This document shows, in pieces, positions 804 through 6,049 of a stretch of 64,000 nt of DNA (positions within the stretch are counted from its first letter, which is position 1; every line of letters starts with the position of its first letter). The notes beneath the pieces were generated by a model. That model ran no database searches. It was not told where the DNA came from and saw only the letters and a program-made list of their open reading frames with translations. Position numbers and translations under genes: made by a program. Source of the stretch: a virus (Duplodnaviria; Caudoviricetes); the IMG/VR virus record IMGVR_UViG_3300028603_000038, positions 6,096 to 70,095 of that record, one strand, 5' to 3'.

Positions 804-3032
804 TTATTTAGTACCAATATATTTTTTGGCGAATTTAGGGTCGCTTTCTTTAATAGATTTAATGAAGCGTAACTGTGGTTGATAATCGTAGCCCTCTTCG
901 TAGGCAATTTTTATCTTGCACTTTATTTTCTCTAGGGCTAACTCGGCATTTAACTGAGTTAATACGTCTAGGTCTTTTTGCAATTTAACATTAGTCTGTT
1001 CTTTGGTAATTAATTTTTTCAAACGTCGTATTTTATTCGCATTAGAATTAAGATTACTGACTACTTTAGTATATTCATCATGAGTTCTGAATACCTCGTC
1101 CGTAGTTTGCTTTTTATCTTTGTAGTCTCTTTTCTTTTTGCTCTTCTCATAGTAAATCTCTTTTAATTCATCATCACTATATTCAGTTATACAGTTTAAG
1201 GACGAATTAAAAGTAGTATACTTATAGTTATGATTGCATTTTTTTAACTTTATTTCATAACCAATATAAGGGAGCAGTAATTCAATAAGTACGTCAGCCA
1301 CTTTCGAGGAATACACTATTAAGTGGCAAGGTTCCTTGGAATTAATGTCTCGAATAGAAAGACGAGCAACACTCTGCGCGATGTTCGCAGCAATCCACTG
1401 TTTACGATAATCGAATTCAGGAATGAAAGCAGTCAAAAAAGAAGCTAGCCTTGGTTGTGGATTAAGGGAAGCCAAGAAGATCATAATATGAATGTGTGAA
1501 TAATTATTCATACCATGACTTTTAACGCTCATAAAGTCCATACCCGAGTTTACATCTGGGTAATTATACTCGATATAACTAGCAACTGTACTTTTAGTAA
1601 CGTTGTTAGTGACTATTAAAGTATCAGTTGTATTTGAAGAAGTTAAATTAGTTTTTCTAAACTTATTTACTAATTCTTCTGCGTGTTTGAAATAAGGAAT
1701 AATTGGTGGAGAAAAAAGTTCATCGAAACGCATACCTGTTACGGCAGTAATTTTTGCTTGAACTTTTTTAGTTACTTTTTTACCTGAACCCGGAGTGCGA
1801 CCACGGTTGTGTAATTCTTTTATATAATATCTGTACAACGTATTAACAGAATACGTTTTAGTAGAATTACTTTCTACTGCTTTCCTGTATTTATCAAAAC
1901 CCCGTGCCAAAATTTTAATAATTTTTGCGCGGCAGCTTTCAGGTAGTTCCGGATCAAGAATTTGAGAACCTAGTAAACGTAGCTTAGACAAATAACTATT
2001 GTCTTCACACAGACTGTGAATTTGAAGACGTTTATACTGCTTGATTACTTTACTTTTTCTTTTCGGGTTGAACAAATGAGATTGGTTTATTAACTCATAG
2101 TTCTTTTGCAGAATATGGAATAACTCACTGTGTTCAAAAAAAGCAGACATCAAATATACTTCGTGGAAACCATCAAACGCGTATTCAGGGCTAACGAAGT
2201 TAAAGAAATTAAACTGGGAACCATTCTCCATCATGTACACAGAGTAACGAGAGTCACACATCCTTTTCAACAACTCATAAAAATTAGAGTTGAAAAGAGT
2301 ATCACCCATTGCTCTGTATTCAGTTAGAATTTTTTTGTTAGCAGTAAGTCGCATATAAGGAAGAATGTCTTTAGGCTTTAGAACGGGATGCTTGAAGCCT
2401 ATTTCTTTTTGCTTTCTCAAAAATAGTTCACCGGACACGTAGTCCTTCATGAAGGCTTCATTATTTTTATCTACTTTCAAATTGTACTGAGAAATATTAA
2501 GTTCGCTAGCTTCATCAAAAATAAGCATACAGCGAGATTTAGTTTCTTCAAAAATGTCAGATGACTCTATATAAAGTTTATGTGTAATAAGGTAGACAGA
2601 ACCCAAGTCTTTAGATTCATTAATCTCTTGAGTAAATTGTTCGCTTAGGCTGAAAGATAAAATAGAAGACTCTTCCGTAGAATGAGTATCCGCAGACATT
2701 ATTAGATGTACCTTTGAACGAGGCATACCTTTTTTTATCAGGTCTTTATATACTTGCTGCAAAAGTTTTTTGGTGGGTGCACAGAAAATAGTAATTAACT
2801 TCTTCTCAGAATAGTTATTCAAAATAGTTTCAATTGCCCACTTTGTTTTACCAACAGAAGGTAGCGTAGAAATATAATTCAAGGCGGGTTTAAAAATTAA
2901 CTCTGGGTCAGTATAAGGAGCACAAATATATCTGGACAATGGAGACTCAGTTTCTCTATGAAAAAAGAAAACAGAATCTCTTGCGTAGTAACGAGAACTC
3001 GACGGCTGTTTAATGTCATAAAGACGATACAT
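804..3032 (-). CDS. SF2 helicase-like protein, putative origin-binding/replication initiator (742 aa)
   Basis: Walker A-like LPSVGKT, FCAPTKKL motif Ia, Walker B LIFDEA, LMSA motif III-like and QSVARLSIRD motif VI-like; lies next to the largest non-coding region. The origin-binding role is inference. Confidence 0.6.
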   Translation of the reverse strand: MYRLYDIKQPSSSRYYARDSVFFFHRETESPLSRYICAPYTDPELIFKPALNYISTLPSVGKTKWAIETILNNYSEKKLITIFCAPTKKLLQQVYKDLIKKGMPRSKVHLIMSADTHSTEESSILSFSLSEQFTQEINESKDLGSVYLITHKLYIESSDIFEETKSRCMLIFDEASELNISQYNLKVDKNNEAFMKDYVSGELFLRKQKEIGFKHPVLKPKDILPYMRLTANKKILTEYRAMGDTLFNSNFYELLKRMCDSRYSVYMMENGSQFNFFNFVSPEYAFDGFHEVYLMSAFFEHSELFHILQKNYELINQSHLFNPKRKSKVIKQYKRLQIHSLCEDNSYLSKLRLLGSQILDPELPESCRAKIIKILARGFDKYRKAVESNSTKTYSVNTLYRYYIKELHNRGRTPGSGKKVTKKVQAKITAVTGMRFDELFSPPIIPYFKHAEELVNKFRKTNLTSSNTTDTLIVTNNVTKSTVASYIEYNYPDVNSGMDFMSVKSHGMNNYSHIHIMIFLASLNPQPRLASFLTAFIPEFDYRKQWIAANIAQSVARLSIRDINSKEPCHLIVYSSKVADVLIELLLPYIGYEIKLKKCNHNYKYTTFNSSLNCITEYSDDELKEIYYEKSKKKRDYKDKKQTTDEVFRTHDEYTKVVSNLNSNANKIRRLKKLITKEQTNVKLQKDLDVLTQLNAELALEKIKCKIKIAYEEGYDYQPQLRFIKSIKESDPKFAKKYIGTK

Positions 3033-3147
3033 TTTATTTCTCCGAAGTCGGATTTATTTTTGAATTAAATGCAATTTTGAATTAATTATTTACTGTACGT
3101 TTGGTCAGTGAAAACAAGCAAAATTACTGTACATGCGTACAGGAAAA

Positions 3148-3329
3148 GGTAGGCAAGTTGAAGGGTAGGCAAGTTGCGTTTGAAAACGAAAAAACCTTTC
3201 TAAAACACTATGACGTATGAAAATTTGAAAAACGACCTTCATATCAGACTATAACGGGTCGAATTTTGGACGAAAGCCGCGATATTGATCTAAAACGGGT
3301 GGTAGAACTGAAAAAAAGGTAGGCAAGTG
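3148..3329 (+). repeat. Iteron-like direct repeats GGTAGGCAAGT x3
   Basis: Copies at 3148, 3164 and 3318. Confidence 0.7.
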
Positions 3330-3702
3330 ACTTTTGACCTCTCTAGAATAAGGCTTTTTATAGAGCACTTTTGAAAAAACGCGATATTGCACTATGGCCC
3401 GTGTTCATGAAAGTGTACAAAGTTTTCGACCCTACATAGTATAAAAAAATCCACGCGTTACTTTACAGGAAACGCTATAACGTATGAAACTAGTGAAAAA
3501 ACAGGCGTGGATTTTAATGAATCAACGCCGCGTGTATTTTTTACGGGTTTTAATTAATATAACAGATAAAAAATACACTCTTACCCATACTTGTTAAAAT
3601 CTAACCCATTGGACAATAATCCATATACGAATTAAAACCCATTACTGGATAAATGTCCTAACTGGTTAAAACCCAAATAGTAAAACTTCAAATTTAAAAA
3701 AT

Positions 3703-3938
3703 CATAATCAGAAAAGAAATAAACACAAACTAAAACAATCACAACTACTCGAAGCGAAGCGAGAGTAGTTGTTGAGTTACAAGCGAACGAAGTGAGCGCA
3801 GTAACCACAAGTCCAATTACTTGACGTTGGAACAGTATGGGAGTTTCGCTTCGCTCACTCCCGAACTGAATTTATTCGCTTCGCTCATAAATATCAGTTC
3901 TTGTTTTAATCATGTATGTTTCTTTTTCTTTGATTATG
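3703..3938. repeat. Inverted-repeat-bounded cluster of four C-GAA-G hairpins
   Basis: Hairpins at 3741-3772 and 3776-3805 (top strand) and at 3839-3862 and 3863-3900 (bottom strand); imperfect flanking arms 3703-3738 and 3901-3938. Confidence 0.8.
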
Positions 3939-4354
3939 TTTTCGTTCCTGAATCTGTTTCCTGATACCCATGATAAATAATTACAGTCTGAATAATTACC
4001 CAGTGCGCAGAGCGCACTATTTAATTTCGTTGTGTACATGGATTTATTTATTCCCGAATTCTATTTATTTACTGTCTGTTAATTAACGTATTTATTCGTG
4101 CGCTGTGTGCACTATTTAATCCTCGAATTAAACCCTATTTAAATCCCTTCCCGGTTTCCTGCAATTCCCGCCGTTTTGCCCATATCTGTGTTATGCCTAA
4201 CAACCCTTCCTGAAACCACTTGTTTTATAGTATGTTATTTGGCGCTTTCGCGCCCGCAACCCCATTTATTTGTGCATCCTAATTTCAATCTCGACAGCAA
4301 TTAAAATGTTGTTGTTAAGCATTGCTTAAAAGTCCTAATTAGGAGTAACACAAT

Positions 4355-6049
4355 ATGAAAAAAGGTCACTTGGTTAAGGCCAGCCTTATTAACGGGCAGT
4401 CCAAAAACCAAGGGTCGCTTTTTTACGTTGTAGCTTCCGCAATTAAAGAAAGCCCGTCACAAGAAATTCTGGCAGGTTTTAAATGCAATAGCTGTAAGGC
4501 TACTTTTGCTTCTGCAAAAGATTTTGAGCCGCACTGTGTTGTATGCGCAAGTGAAGACGTTGAATTAGATGACACCTTGGATACTCCCGTTGAAAATGTG
4601 GAAGATACAGAAACTGCATCTATCCAATGTACTAAATGTAACTCTTTTAATATGGTAAGCCTTGCAGGTGCAGTAGCATTTGACAACCATATTAATTGTG
4701 CTGCATGTGCTAATGCACTTTCTTATGAATTACCGGAAAGTGTTATTGCAGAAATTAAAGAAGATTCAGAAGCATTTCCGGAAGCGGAAGAATCTGAATC
4801 TGATATGGAAGCAGAAGAAGCTGCCACCGAAGATACCGAATCCGAAATGGAAGAGGAAAATGAAGGTGACGAAGAAACTGCTGCTACCGAAGACGACGAG
4901 GATTTTGATTTAGACGAAATTCTTGACGACACTGACGACGACGAAATTGACGACTCGATGGAAGAAGAGTCGGAAGAAGTCGAAGACATTGACGAAGAAA
5001 CTGCTGCTACCGAAGAATCTGAAACCGAATCTGAAATGGAAGAGGAAGAAGAAACTGCTGGTGCAGATGAAGAAGAAGTTACCGTTGACGACACTACAGA
5101 AGATGAAGTTGAGGACGAAGAAACTGCGGACACAATTAATTCGCAAGGTTCTCAATTTAATTCTGCTGTTCCGGAAGGTGAAACTTCTGAATGTGAAACT
5201 AAAGAAGTTGTTACGACTACCGAAGGTGGTGGTAACGGTTCTGTAGATAATGCTACGGAATTTAATTATGACGACGTTCCTGTAATGGACGTTGCACCGG
5301 CTGACGAAAATCTGGAATTCCAGTATTCAGATGACGGTGACACTATTACCGCATACAAAGGCGACTTCCCGGTTGCTGATCTGAAACGTGAACATGCTGG
5401 TGAAAATCAAAAGGTTTTTGCTAACGCTGCTTTCGTTCCTAGTGTTATTAAGTATGCAAAACAAAATTCGGAAACTGCTGCACTTAATGCTTTCGGATTT
5501 AAAATGCGTACAATTAAAGTACCTGTTGACAATCTTGTGCAGGCGCGTGTCGAAAAAGAATTGGCTAAACAAACTGCTGAACTCGCGTCCAGCAAAGAAT
5601 CTTACAATGACCGTTTAACTCAGTCTCTGCAAATTGCTTTGGCTGGTGTAAACAAAAACTTTTTCCGTGGTACGTCTAATCCTTTAGTGGATGAACTGGT
5701 AGCAGAATTAGCCGCTTCTAGTTCGCTGCAATCTCCACGTGCTTTTGTTAACCGCGTATTCGCATCCTGTGGTGAAGACTTCGCAAAAGTAATTATGACA
5801 AAAGCTATGGAACTTTGCGGTAAATCAGACGAAGTGCGCAACGAACTTGCTGCTGCACTTGGTGACGTTAATATGGTTGATGACGACGAAGAACAAGATG
5901 ATGACAGTGTAACTGCTCGTCTTGCTAGCGGCGGCAAAACCGTAAAAGCGAAATCTACTACTACCGTAGCTTCTAGCCATAAAGTTACTCAAATCTCGCA
6001 AATTAATGAGCGCGCTAAAGAACTTGGCGGCTTGTTTAACAAAATTTAA
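4355..6049 (+). CDS. Putative prohead scaffolding/core protein with N-terminal zinc-finger pairs and long acidic tract (564 aa)
   Basis: First gene of the head cluster; four CxxC pairs, D/E-rich low-complexity middle and predicted helical C-terminus; AGGAG SD. The scaffold role is inferred from synteny and composition. Confidence 0.6.
   Translation: MKKGHLVKASLINGQSKNQGSLFYVVASAIKESPSQEILAGFKCNSCKATFASAKDFEPHCVVCASEDVELDDTLDTPVENVEDTETASIQCTKCNSFNMVSLAGAVAFDNHINCAACANALSYELPESVIAEIKEDSEAFPEAEESESDMEAEEAATEDTESEMEEENEGDEETAATEDDEDFDLDEILDDTDDDEIDDSMEEESEEVEDIDEETAATEESETESEMEEEEETAGADEEEVTVDDTTEDEVEDEETADTINSQGSQFNSAVPEGETSECETKEVVTTTEGGGNGSVDNATEFNYDDVPVMDVAPADENLEFQYSDDGDTITAYKGDFPVADLKREHAGENQKVFANAAFVPSVIKYAKQNSETAALNAFGFKMRTIKVPVDNLVQARVEKELAKQTAELASSKESYNDRLTQSLQIALAGVNKNFFRGTSNPLVDELVAELAASSSLQSPRAFVNRVFASCGEDFAKVIMTKAMELCGKSDEVRNELAAALGDVNMVDDDEEQDDDSVTARLASGGKTVKAKSTTTVASSHKVTQISQINERAKELGGLFNKI

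What the first reader, a model, noticed from the sequence alone, without database searches (positions are those of the whole stretch)
3703..3938. Dyad of four GA-flanked C-GAA-G DNA hairpins inside a 236-bp inverted-repeat frame
Seen: two hairpins on the top strand (CTACTC-GAA-GCGAAGC-GA-GAGTAG; GC-GA-ACGAAGT-GA-GC) and two on the bottom strand (GGGAGT-GA-GCGAAGC-GAA-ACTCCC; TTTAT-GA-GCGAAGC-GA-ATAAA). The outer stems differ completely while the loop architecture is kept, and GC-GAA-GC versus AC-GAA-GT is a compensatory change. Imperfect 36-38 bp arms (3703-3738/3901-3938) enclose all four. Established: d(GCGAAGC) mini-hairpins and sheared G.A pairs are unusually stable in ssDNA specifically, and N4 virion RNAP reads hairpin promoters with 3-nt purine loops. 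Inference: a structure-encoded bidirectional priming/origin signal or ssDNA hairpin promoter pair that works as DNA rather than RNA.
Basis: partly seen in the sequence, partly recalled or inferred. Interest (0 to 1): 0.75.

Follow-up and report, generated by a model that had tools for sequence, protein, structure and literature searches.

The report
Opposed DNA mini-hairpins, likely phage origin
The largest gene-free gap of an uncultured 184.5-kb tailed phage holds a conserved set of very stable DNA hairpins, two on each strand and facing away from each other, next to short repeats; it most likely marks where the phage starts copying its DNA in both directions, though no replication data exist.

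Summary
Four nested hairpins lie at 3741-3900: HP1 and HP2 carry purine caps on the top strand, HP3 and HP4 on the bottom strand. Each has an outer stem, a GA or GAA bracket, then a GCGAAGC or ACGAAGT cap.

- **Uniqueness:** this loop in a hairpin occurs nowhere else in the 184.5-kb circular phage contig.
- **Location:** the element lies in the genome's largest non-coding gap (1322 bp), its only point of divergent transcription. It is flanked by iterons found only in that gap and by an outward-pointing promoter-like motif.
- **Conservation:** seven related lineages were compared, with capsid protein identity down to 50-58%. Stems change by compensation. Caps swap only within the class GCGNAGC, GCGNNAGC or ACGNAGT, which is known to be ultrastable as DNA. 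The polarity, top-strand hairpin on the left and bottom-strand hairpin on the right, is kept.
- **Specificity:** only caps closed by a C-G pair are enriched in these gaps (4.1-fold).
- **Phage genes:** a gp61-like primase, a DnaB-like helicase and topoisomerase II were found. No RNA polymerase was found.

Best reading (about 0.45): origin-linked single-strand hairpin signals, with the geometry of ssiA/ssiB in IncQ plasmid RSF1010. A structured RNA or terminator pair, a genome-end or packaging site, and N4-type promoters are not excluded.

The same 11-nt loop in unrelated stems recurs in hundreds of other viral contigs. Earlier notes of this scan flagged related GCGAAGC hairpins on other DNA.

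The parts
3741..3772 (+). HP1: 10-bp stem, loop GAA-GCGAAGC-GA, purine cap on the top strand
   Evidence: Sequence; folds. In L013 the stem is replaced by ACACGAGACT/AGTCTCGTGT while the loop is kept.
3776..3805 (+). HP2: GTTAC/GTAAC outer stem enclosing GC-GA-ACGAAGT-GA-GC, purine cap on the top strand
   Evidence: L013 keeps it, with one T-A to C-G compensatory pair and the cap changed to ACAAAGT.
3806..3838 (.). Poorly conserved centre between the opposed hairpin sets; the spacing between the left and right hairpins is 53-92 nt across lineages
3839..3862 (-). HP3: GGGAGT-GA-GCGAAGC-GAA-ACTCCC, purine cap on the bottom strand
   Evidence: invariant in L013 apart from one lost G
3863..3900 (-). 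HP4: 13-bp stem with bulged A3893, loop GA-GCGAAGC-GA, purine cap on the bottom strand
   Evidence: The stem is partly replaced with compensation in L013. The only change within the stem in run X7 is the bulged base A3893>G.
3696..3740 (.). A-rich left flank, the left arm of the 'frame'
3901..3942 (.). T-rich right flank, the right arm of the 'frame'
3149..3328 (+). Iterons GTAGGCAAGT x3 (starts 3149, 3165, 3319), found only in this gap; part of the proposed origin region
   Evidence: L013 has six copies; other lineages carry their own iterons at the same place.
3460..3468 (-). Promoter-like CTGTAAAGT pointing left, away from the hairpins
   Evidence: 29 copies across the genome, on the strand of the local genes; lies in a conserved block
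4237..4354 (+). Conserved promoter and leader block of the head operon, pointing right, away from the hairpins
   Evidence: 73-92% identity to L013. The motif TGCR-nn-CTAATTTYA is seen in all relatives.

Best explanation
The element is the structural core of the phage's replication-origin region. It is a pair of opposed single-strand DNA hairpin signals.

Proposed sequence of events (all steps inferred):
1. An initiator binds the lineage-specific iterons about 400-600 bp to the left, and the A/T-rich flanks melt.
2. Each freed strand snaps into nested hairpins. The outer stem continues through sheared G-A pairs (GA or GNA brackets) into a C-G-closed GNA or GNNA mini-hairpin. Such folds are unusually stable as DNA and are poor substrates for single-strand binding protein.
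3. The top-strand hairpins lie on the left and the bottom-strand hairpins on the right. RNA or DNA synthesis that starts 3' of each hairpin on its template, as at G4 oric and RSF1010 ssiA/ssiB, would therefore run outward from a 50-90-nt centre. That gives two diverging leading strands.
4. The phage's own gp61-like primase and DnaB-like helicase are the candidate readers.

Shown here: the structure, its conservation, its polarity and its context. Inferred: initiator binding, melting, priming and direction of synthesis.
For: - **Structure under selection.** Loops are invariant while stems are replaced with compensation between the window and L013. In L255, L257 and L258, 4 of 13 pairs changed on both sides. 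On 7 hairpins from 6 lineages, 100% of cells pair against 64.5% in shuffles, 8 of 9 pairs have double changes, and slid controls pair at 26-41%.
- **The caps change only within a DNA-type class.** Homologous hairpins carry GCGAAGC, ACGAAGT, ACGTAGT, GCGTAGC, GCGCAGC, GCGGAGC, GCGTAAGC or GCGAAAGC, bracketed by GNA. This matches the mini-hairpin class of PMC13037366 and the GNA zipper of PMC11014236.
- **Enrichment is specific.** xC-GNA-Gx' is 4.1-fold enriched in the gaps. Closings by G-C (1.4-fold) or A-T/T-A (0.5-0.8-fold) and ANG-loop controls (0.3-1.1-fold) are not. This fits the C-G closing-pair rule of PMC3201870.
- **Uniqueness and place.** The loop-in-hairpin has no other copy in the 184.5-kb genome. 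The gap is the largest in the genome and the only divergence point.
- **Origin-like surroundings.** Iterons are unique to the gap and differ between lineages. In relative L259 a Rep-like gene (PF23343) with its own iterons sits at the same junction.
- **Probably between promoters.** Promoter-like sites on both sides point away from the element.
- **Conservation island.** The element is 63-80% identical to L013, against 20-55% in most of the rest of the gap (two promoter-like blocks are equally conserved). It is nearly invariant in a wastewater population whose flanks differ.
- **Polarity kept** in all seven lineages. It matches the ssi geometry in which priming starts 3' of the hairpin and ssiA and ssiB lie on complementary strands (PMC8567376).
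- **Replication genes.** Primase, DnaB-like helicase and topoisomerase II are encoded.
Against: - There is no direct replication evidence.
- The cumulative GC-skew minimum falls in the gap, but skew follows the coding strand: the opposite-oriented genes at 15.7-17.9 kb flip its sign. It is therefore not independent evidence.
- On the complementary strand each outer hairpin is followed by a T-rich tract and resembles an outward-facing terminator.
- The L259 and L018 lineages lack the hairpins at this junction.
- The hairpins used for the covariation count were chosen for having perfect stems.
- Hairpins with the same loop in unrelated viruses lie in many contexts and rarely as opposed pairs. 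The cap may therefore be a general stabiliser and not an origin signal.
- T4-like replisomes are known, from my own knowledge, to start mainly from R-loops and recombination.
Confidence: 0.45

Rival explanations
1. The element is transcribed. Either it encodes one or two overlapping antisense small RNAs of about 200 nt, or it is a pair of outward-facing intrinsic terminators or insulators. In that case the hairpins act as RNA.
For: The RNA folds are as strongly non-random as the DNA folds (z = -5.8 and -5.6). On the strand that carries the pyrimidine loop, HP1 (read leftward) and HP4 (read rightward) are followed by T-rich tracts; the same holds in L255, L257 and L258. Loops on one strand are 10-12 nt complementary to each other, so loop-loop pairing is possible.
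Against: The conserved features are properties of the purine strand and of DNA thermodynamics: GNA brackets, C-G-closed GNA or GNNA caps, and a pyrimidine 5' of the GA bracket in 81 of 87 cases. Rfam gives no match at E <= 1. No promoter-like site points into the element. Sixty hairpins with this loop in other viruses lack T-runs on either side. A terminator between divergent operons has nothing known to terminate.
Confidence: 0.2
2. The element marks the physical genome ends or the packaging-initiation site (pac, or a terminal-repeat boundary). The hairpins would serve terminase recognition or end duplication.
For: It is a single-copy element directly upstream of the head-gene block. If the linear ends lay in the gap, both gene blocks would be transcribed inward from the ends.
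Against: The contig closes as a circle with only a 55-bp assembly overlap, so there is no sign of ends. No terminase gene was identified next to the element. Contig-based read laying could not show ends.
Confidence: 0.1
3. The hairpins are N4-type single-stranded hairpin promoters on the template strands, read by a hairpin-specific RNA polymerase to give divergent transcription.
For: N4 virion RNA polymerase binds a GCGGAGC-type mini-hairpin with a GGA or GAA loop (PMC13037366).
Against: No T7-like polymerase (PF00940) and no multisubunit polymerase domain (PF00562, PF00623) was found on the phage contig; the PF00940 control rang nowhere, so that search is weak. N4 promoters are simple hairpins with a 5-7-bp stem and a 3-nt loop, not nested hairpins with GNA brackets. 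The genome has its own dispersed promoter-like motif, CTGTAAAGT. The right-hand target genes are head genes, which are late genes.
Confidence: 0.08
4. The element is a cruciform or double-stranded binding site for a regulator or architectural protein that controls the two divergent operons.
For: It has two-fold symmetry, lies between divergent promoter-like sites, and is near iterons that could be operators. An AT-hook protein is encoded in the leftward operon.
Against: Double-stranded recognition does not explain compensatory stems combined with caps that change within one structural class.
Confidence: 0.1
5. The element is a small selfish palindromic insertion of the MITE type, with terminal inverted repeats.
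For: Imperfect inverted flanks. The same loop motif occurs in many unrelated viral contigs.
Against: It is single-copy in the genome. It sits at the same syntenic site in lineages down to 50-58% capsid protein identity. There is no target-site duplication at the arm ends. The arms are A/T tracts.
Confidence: 0.03

Closest known systems
oriV of IncQ plasmid RSF1010: iterons plus ssiA and ssiB hairpins read by primase RepB' (PMC8567376; PMC13037366)
   Same: Iterons lie beside two hairpin signals that occur once each on complementary strands. The hairpins are exposed by unwinding. ssiA carries a C-G-closed GAA mini-hairpin (CCGAAGG). Priming starts 3' of the hairpin, so the two strands are primed in opposite directions.
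   Different: The host replicon here is a 184.5-kb phage, not a small plasmid. No RepB'-type primase was looked for or found; the phage primase is of the DnaG/gp61 type. Each hairpin is nested, with GNA brackets and 5-13-bp variable stems, and there are two per strand. Function is untested.
Primase-dependent complementary-strand origins of phages G4, St-1 and alpha3 (review PMC13037366)
   Same: Clustered hairpins contain GCGAAAGC or GCGTTAGC mini-hairpins at a priming site. The mini-hairpins bind single-strand binding protein poorly.
   Different: Those genomes are single-stranded and carry the signal on one strand only. Here the genome is double-stranded and the signal is an opposed pair.
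Phage N4 early promoters read by the virion RNA polymerase (Davydova 2007, cited in PMC13037366)
   Same: A template-strand DNA hairpin capped by a GGA or GAA triloop of the GCGNAGC type.
   Different: N4 hairpins have a 5-7-bp stem and a 3-nt loop, with no GNA-bracketed nesting. Several copies lie ahead of early genes. They need a giant T7-like virion polymerase, which was not found here.
d(GCGNAGC) and d(GCGNNAGC) mini-hairpins and the sheared G-A 'zipper' (PMC13037366, PMC3201870, PMC11014236)
   Same: The cap sequences, the need for a C-G closing pair, and the GNA/GNA brackets match these motifs exactly.
   Different: Those are physico-chemical motifs, not a biological system. Their presence here says the DNA can fold, not what the fold does.

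Membership tests
Mini-hairpin DNA class d(GCGNAGC)/d(GCGNNAGC) | Sequence xC-GNA-Gx' or xC-GNNA-Gx' with a C-G closing pair | tested here: met
   GCGAAGC x3 and ACGAAGT x1 in the element. Relatives carry other members of the class. Only C-G-closed GNA is enriched, 4.1-fold.
Mini-hairpin DNA class d(GCGNAGC)/d(GCGNNAGC) | Extraordinary thermal and nuclease stability as single-stranded DNA | not testable with these tools
   Nearest-neighbour folding does not model sheared G-A pairs; melting experiments on oligonucleotides are needed.
Single-strand initiation signals (G4 type, IncQ ssiA/ssiB) | Hairpin signals on complementary strands inside an origin with iterons | tested here: inconclusive
   Opposed hairpins next to gap-specific iterons, but the region has not been shown to be an origin.
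Single-strand initiation signals (G4 type, IncQ ssiA/ssiB) | Directs primase-dependent priming on single-stranded DNA | not testable with these tools
   Needs M13 ssi complementation or an in-vitro priming assay. The phage does encode a gp61-like primase.
N4-type hairpin promoters | Simple 5-7-bp stem with a 3-nt purine loop on the template strand, upstream of early genes | tested here: not met
   The hairpins are nested with 11-13-nt loops, occur at a single locus, and the right-hand targets are head genes.
N4-type hairpin promoters | Phage-encoded hairpin-specific (T7-like) virion RNA polymerase | tested here: inconclusive
   PF00940 gave no hit, but its control rang in no genome. No Rpb1 or Rpb2 domain was found on the phage contig.
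Intrinsic terminators | G+C-rich hairpin with a short loop followed directly by a U-run | tested here: inconclusive
   T-rich tracts follow HP1 (bottom strand) and HP4 (top strand). The scan did not call them, and 60 hairpins with the same loop elsewhere lack T-runs.
Rfam RNA families | Match to a curated covariance model | tested here: not met
   No match at E <= 1 in 2800-4600; no tRNA or tmRNA.
MITE-like mobile element | Multiple copies, terminal inverted repeats and target-site duplication | tested here: not met
   Single copy, syntenic across lineages, no duplication at the arm ends.

The most novel reading that the evidence does not exclude
Nested hairpins of the form stem / GA or GNA bracket / C-G-closed GNA cap are a widespread, so far undescribed class of structure-encoded single-strand DNA signals in double-stranded DNA viruses. 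In this family of jumbo phages an opposed pair of them forms a new kind of bidirectional origin. There, priming or helicase loading is specified by DNA fold and not by sequence, and is read by a T4-type primase-helicase.
Probability: 0.3. Interest if true: 0.8.

Novelty: new variant of a known kind. Interest (0 to 1): 0.6.

Why it matters
I know of no mapped replication origin in a jumbo phage. A fold-encoded origin, conserved across a family known so far only from metagenomic contigs (landfill, compost, manure, digesters), would give a concrete site to test.

It would also extend hairpin-directed priming, so far described for single-stranded phages and IncQ plasmids, to large double-stranded viruses.

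The wider result may matter more. One 11-nt loop, GAGCGAAGCGA, sits in unrelated stems in hundreds of viral contigs, and the base before it follows the pyrimidine rule of sheared G-A stacking. This points to a general structural DNA signal whose reader is unknown.

Tried and rejected
- **DNA similarity to known phages:** blastn of the gap found nothing.
- **Close relatives in IMG/VR:** single-protein scans with both flanking proteins found none. Genomes related to the host bin lack the phage.
- **RNA evidence:** the only RNA run that holds part of the stretch is a poly-A compost library kept as contigs. It covers the neighbouring ORF but not the element, apart from low-complexity A-tract matches. 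This says nothing either way about transcription.
- **Genome ends and copy depth:** could not be read from contig-based laying.
- **GC skew as origin evidence:** rejected, because skew tracks the coding strand.
- **G-T versus A-C mismatch test to tell RNA from DNA:** only one informative case.
- **Gene-orientation test on hairpins in other viruses:** the purine strand was on the template strand in about 11 cases against 5, with crude gene calls; not decisive.
- **Opposed arrangement outside this phage family:** 6 cases, with no consistent side.
- **Searching the contigs behind L018 and L013 for the loop:** those records are not held.
- **The neighbouring 742-aa helicase:** no PDB or NCBIfam relative.
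- **TATTTAAT after the GTGCGC hairpins as a general promoter:** not dispersed in the genome.
- **The GCGAAAGC array at 30-bp spacing just left of the window:** it is a coding acidic repeat, not a hairpin array.

Full report
**What the window is.** The window is the reverse strand of contig C1 (positions 60147-124146) of a 4.4-Mb metagenomic bin. C1 is 184,577 bp and ends in a 55-bp repeat of its start, so it is a closed phage genome that was binned with a bacterium. Its genes are those of a large contractile-tailed phage:
- major head protein, tail sheath, baseplate, DNA polymerase and large helicases;
- a 331-aa primase with a DnaG zinc ribbon and a Toprim domain, a DnaB-like helicase and both topoisomerase II subunits.

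No RNA polymerase domain was found on C1; the PF00940 search is weak because its control rang nowhere. The nearest cultured relatives are distant jumbo phages such as Erwinia Y3, Dickeya AD1 and Pseudomonas PaBG. Public runs that hold the DNA come from landfill, compost, manure, wastewater and digesters.

**The observation.** The four hairpins are present, and larger than described.
- HP1, 3741-3772: 10-bp stem with loop GAA-GCGAAGC-GA.
- HP2, 3776-3805: GTTAC/GTAAC around GC-GA-ACGAAGT-GA-GC.
- HP3, 3839-3862: bottom strand GGGAGT-GA-GCGAAGC-GAA-ACTCCC.
- HP4, 3863-3900: 13 bp with bulged A3893; bottom-strand loop GA-GCGAAGC-GA.

HP1 and HP2 carry the purine cap on the top strand, HP3 and HP4 on the bottom strand. 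The region folds far better than shuffles on both strands, as DNA and as RNA (z from -4.4 to -5.8). GCGAAGC is not over-represented in the window as a whole, but three of its four copies lie within 131 bp. The extended loop with a flanking stem of 6 bp or more occurs in the 184.5-kb genome only at HP1, HP3, HP4 and one 2-mismatch site at window 7019. The 'frame' is a 20-30-nt pairing, 70-80% complementary, between an A-rich left tract and a T-rich right tract. Only some relatives keep it.

**Context.**
- The gap 3033-4354 (1322 bp) is by far the largest non-coding gap in the genome; the others are 567 bp or less.
- It is the single point where the two gene blocks diverge; they converge near 77 kb.
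- To the left lies a DEAD-like helicase, followed by AT-hook, HNH and topoisomerase II genes. To the right lie a scaffold-like acidic protein and the head genes.
- Inside the gap, GTAGGCAAGT occurs three times (3149, 3165, 3319) and nowhere else in the genome.
- A promoter-like motif, CTGTAAAGT, has 29 copies across the genome on the strand of the local genes. One copy lies at 3460 on the minus strand and points left.
- The strongly conserved block at 4237-4354 precedes the head operon.

The hairpins therefore appear to lie between promoters that point outward.

**Relatives.** Protein searches found lineages at 97% (L010, L012) and 86% (L013-L015) identity of the right-hand protein. Further lineages at 50-58% capsid protein identity (L255, L257, L258, L260, L261) keep the order helicase, gap, scaffold-like gene.
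- **L013:** all four loops are unchanged. The HP1 stem is entirely replaced (ACACGAGACT/AGTCTCGTGT), and HP4 and HP2 show compensatory pairs. Indels of 1-2 nt inside the element rule out a conserved ORF.
- **Conservation island:** the element is 63-80% identical, against 20-55% in most of the rest of the gap (two promoter-like blocks are equally conserved). In a wastewater population the hairpin core (3741-3900) shows only A3893>G, the bulged base, while the flanks differ at many sites.
- **Deeper lineages:** homologous hairpins keep the build but swap caps among ACGAAGT, ACGTAGT, GCGTAAGC, GCGTAGC, GCGCAGC and GCGGAGC, each bracketed by GNA on both sides.
- **Polarity:** in every lineage a top-strand nested hairpin lies 53-92 nt to the left of a bottom-strand one.
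- **Covariation:** in L255, L257 and L258, 4 of 13 pairs changed on both sides. On seven hairpins from six lineages, every cell pairs (64.5% in shuffles, 0 of 500 reach it), 8 of 9 pairs show double changes, and slid controls pair at 26-41%. The caveat is that these hairpins were picked for perfect stems.
- **Cap enrichment:** GCGN(N)AGC is 2-30 times denser in each gap than in the rest of its locus. Only C-G-closed GNA is enriched (4.1-fold); G-C, A-T and T-A closings and ANG loops are not.
- **Iterons:** each lineage has its own, unique to its gap: TAGTTGTAC, TTCTGCTAAGT and GGCGTGTAG.
- **L259:** this lineage lacks the hairpins but has a Rep-like gene (PF23343) beside its iterons at the same junction.

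**Why DNA is more likely than RNA.** The features under selection belong to the purine strand and to DNA thermodynamics.
- GCGNAGC and GCGNNAGC are the 'mini-hairpin DNA' class (PMC13037366).
- d(GNA) loops need a C-G closing pair (PMC3201870).
- GNA opposite GNA forms sheared G-A pairs with an intercalated base, the 'zipper' (PMC11014236).
- In other viral hairpins with this loop, the base 5' of the GA bracket is a pyrimidine in 81 of 87 cases. From my own knowledge, this is the known context rule for tandem sheared G-A pairs.

Rfam finds nothing. RNA is still not excluded. RNA folds are equally non-random. T-rich tracts follow HP1 and HP4 on the pyrimidine-loop strand. Loops on one strand are mutually complementary, so an alternative long-range fold exists.

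**Mechanism proposed.** The architecture is iterons, then A/T tracts, then opposed single-strand hairpins. This is closest to RSF1010 oriV. There, an initiator and a helicase expose ssiA and ssiB on complementary strands, and RepB' starts 3' of each hairpin (PMC8567376). ssiA itself contains a CCGAAGG mini-hairpin (PMC13037366). With the polarity found here, synthesis that starts 3' of each hairpin would run outward from the centre. I put this reading at about 0.45. The rivals are:
- an RNA or terminator pair (0.2);
- a genome-end or packaging site (0.1);
- a regulatory cruciform (0.1);
- N4-type promoters (0.08);
- a mobile element (0.03).

GC skew cannot settle the question, because it follows the coding strand.

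**Wider distribution.** Chance predicts fewer than one such pair.
- Some of these are tandem repeats, but 14% of cores have perfect flanking stems of 5 bp or more, against 1.2% at random positions. Stems reach 18 bp, are unrelated in sequence, and occur at 28-64% G+C.
- The hairpins are mostly intergenic, often at divergent junctions.
- They lack T-runs and are rarely opposed.

Earlier notes of this scan list 172 findings with related GCGAAGC hairpins on other DNA, with various readings. I treat those as leads only. I found no paper that describes this nested hairpin as a biological element.

**Verdict.** This is a real, conserved and structurally selected DNA element. An origin-linked role is the best-supported reading but is unproven. 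It is a new variant of hairpin-type initiation signals.

Noticed in passing
G000 contig C1 (whole); window = C1:60147-124146 minus strand: C1 is a closed 184,577-bp phage genome with a 55-bp end overlap, binned with a 4.4-Mb bacterial genome. It is not an integrated prophage, so the bin's 6.5% contamination figure probably includes it.
   Followed up: partly
window 3149-3328: The iteron GTAGGCAAGT occurs three times, only in this gap. L013 has six copies, three of them in tandem. Other lineages have different iterons at the same place (TAGTTGTAC, TTCTGCTAAGT, GGCGTGTAG).
   Followed up: yes
window 3460 (-) and 28 other sites across C1: CTGTAAAGT occurs 29 times in the genome, on the strand of the local genes. 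It is a candidate phage promoter element. The copy in the gap points left, toward the helicase operon.
   Followed up: partly
window 4003-4017 and 4098-4112: Two GTGCGC-NNN-GYGCAC hairpins, each followed by TATTTAAT. The second is kept in relatives with changes in the loop and stem. Their role is unknown, and the tail motif is not dispersed in the genome.
   Followed up: partly
window 4260-4354 and the same place in L255, L257, L258, L259, L018: The motif TGCR-nn-CTAATTTYA upstream of the head operon is conserved across all relatives, including those without hairpins. It is a likely late promoter.
   Followed up: no
C1:124407-125114 (about 260-970 nt left of window position 1): A 235-aa ORF with an AT-hook motif and an acidic Ser/Glu repeat. 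Its DNA repeat carries GCGAAAGC every 30 bp, so here a mini-hairpin motif lies inside coding sequence.
   Followed up: partly
L259:4449-5849: In a relative at 51% capsid protein identity, a Rep-like gene (PF23343) and a DNA methylase replace the helicase at the junction. The gap is short (357 bp), with GGCGTGTAG iterons and no nested hairpins.
   Followed up: partly
L019-L254 (IMG/VR and metagenome loci): Hairpins with loop GAGCGAAGCGA and unrelated stems of up to 18 bp occur in pairs in hundreds of viral contigs, including giant-virus bins (L046, L062). They have no T-runs and mostly lie between genes.
   Followed up: partly
window 3751-3762 versus 3845-3856 and 3876-3886: The HP1 loop is 10-12 nt complementary to the HP3 and HP4 loops on the same strand. 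A long-range fold therefore competes with the local hairpins, and it is the minimum-energy fold in L013.
   Followed up: partly
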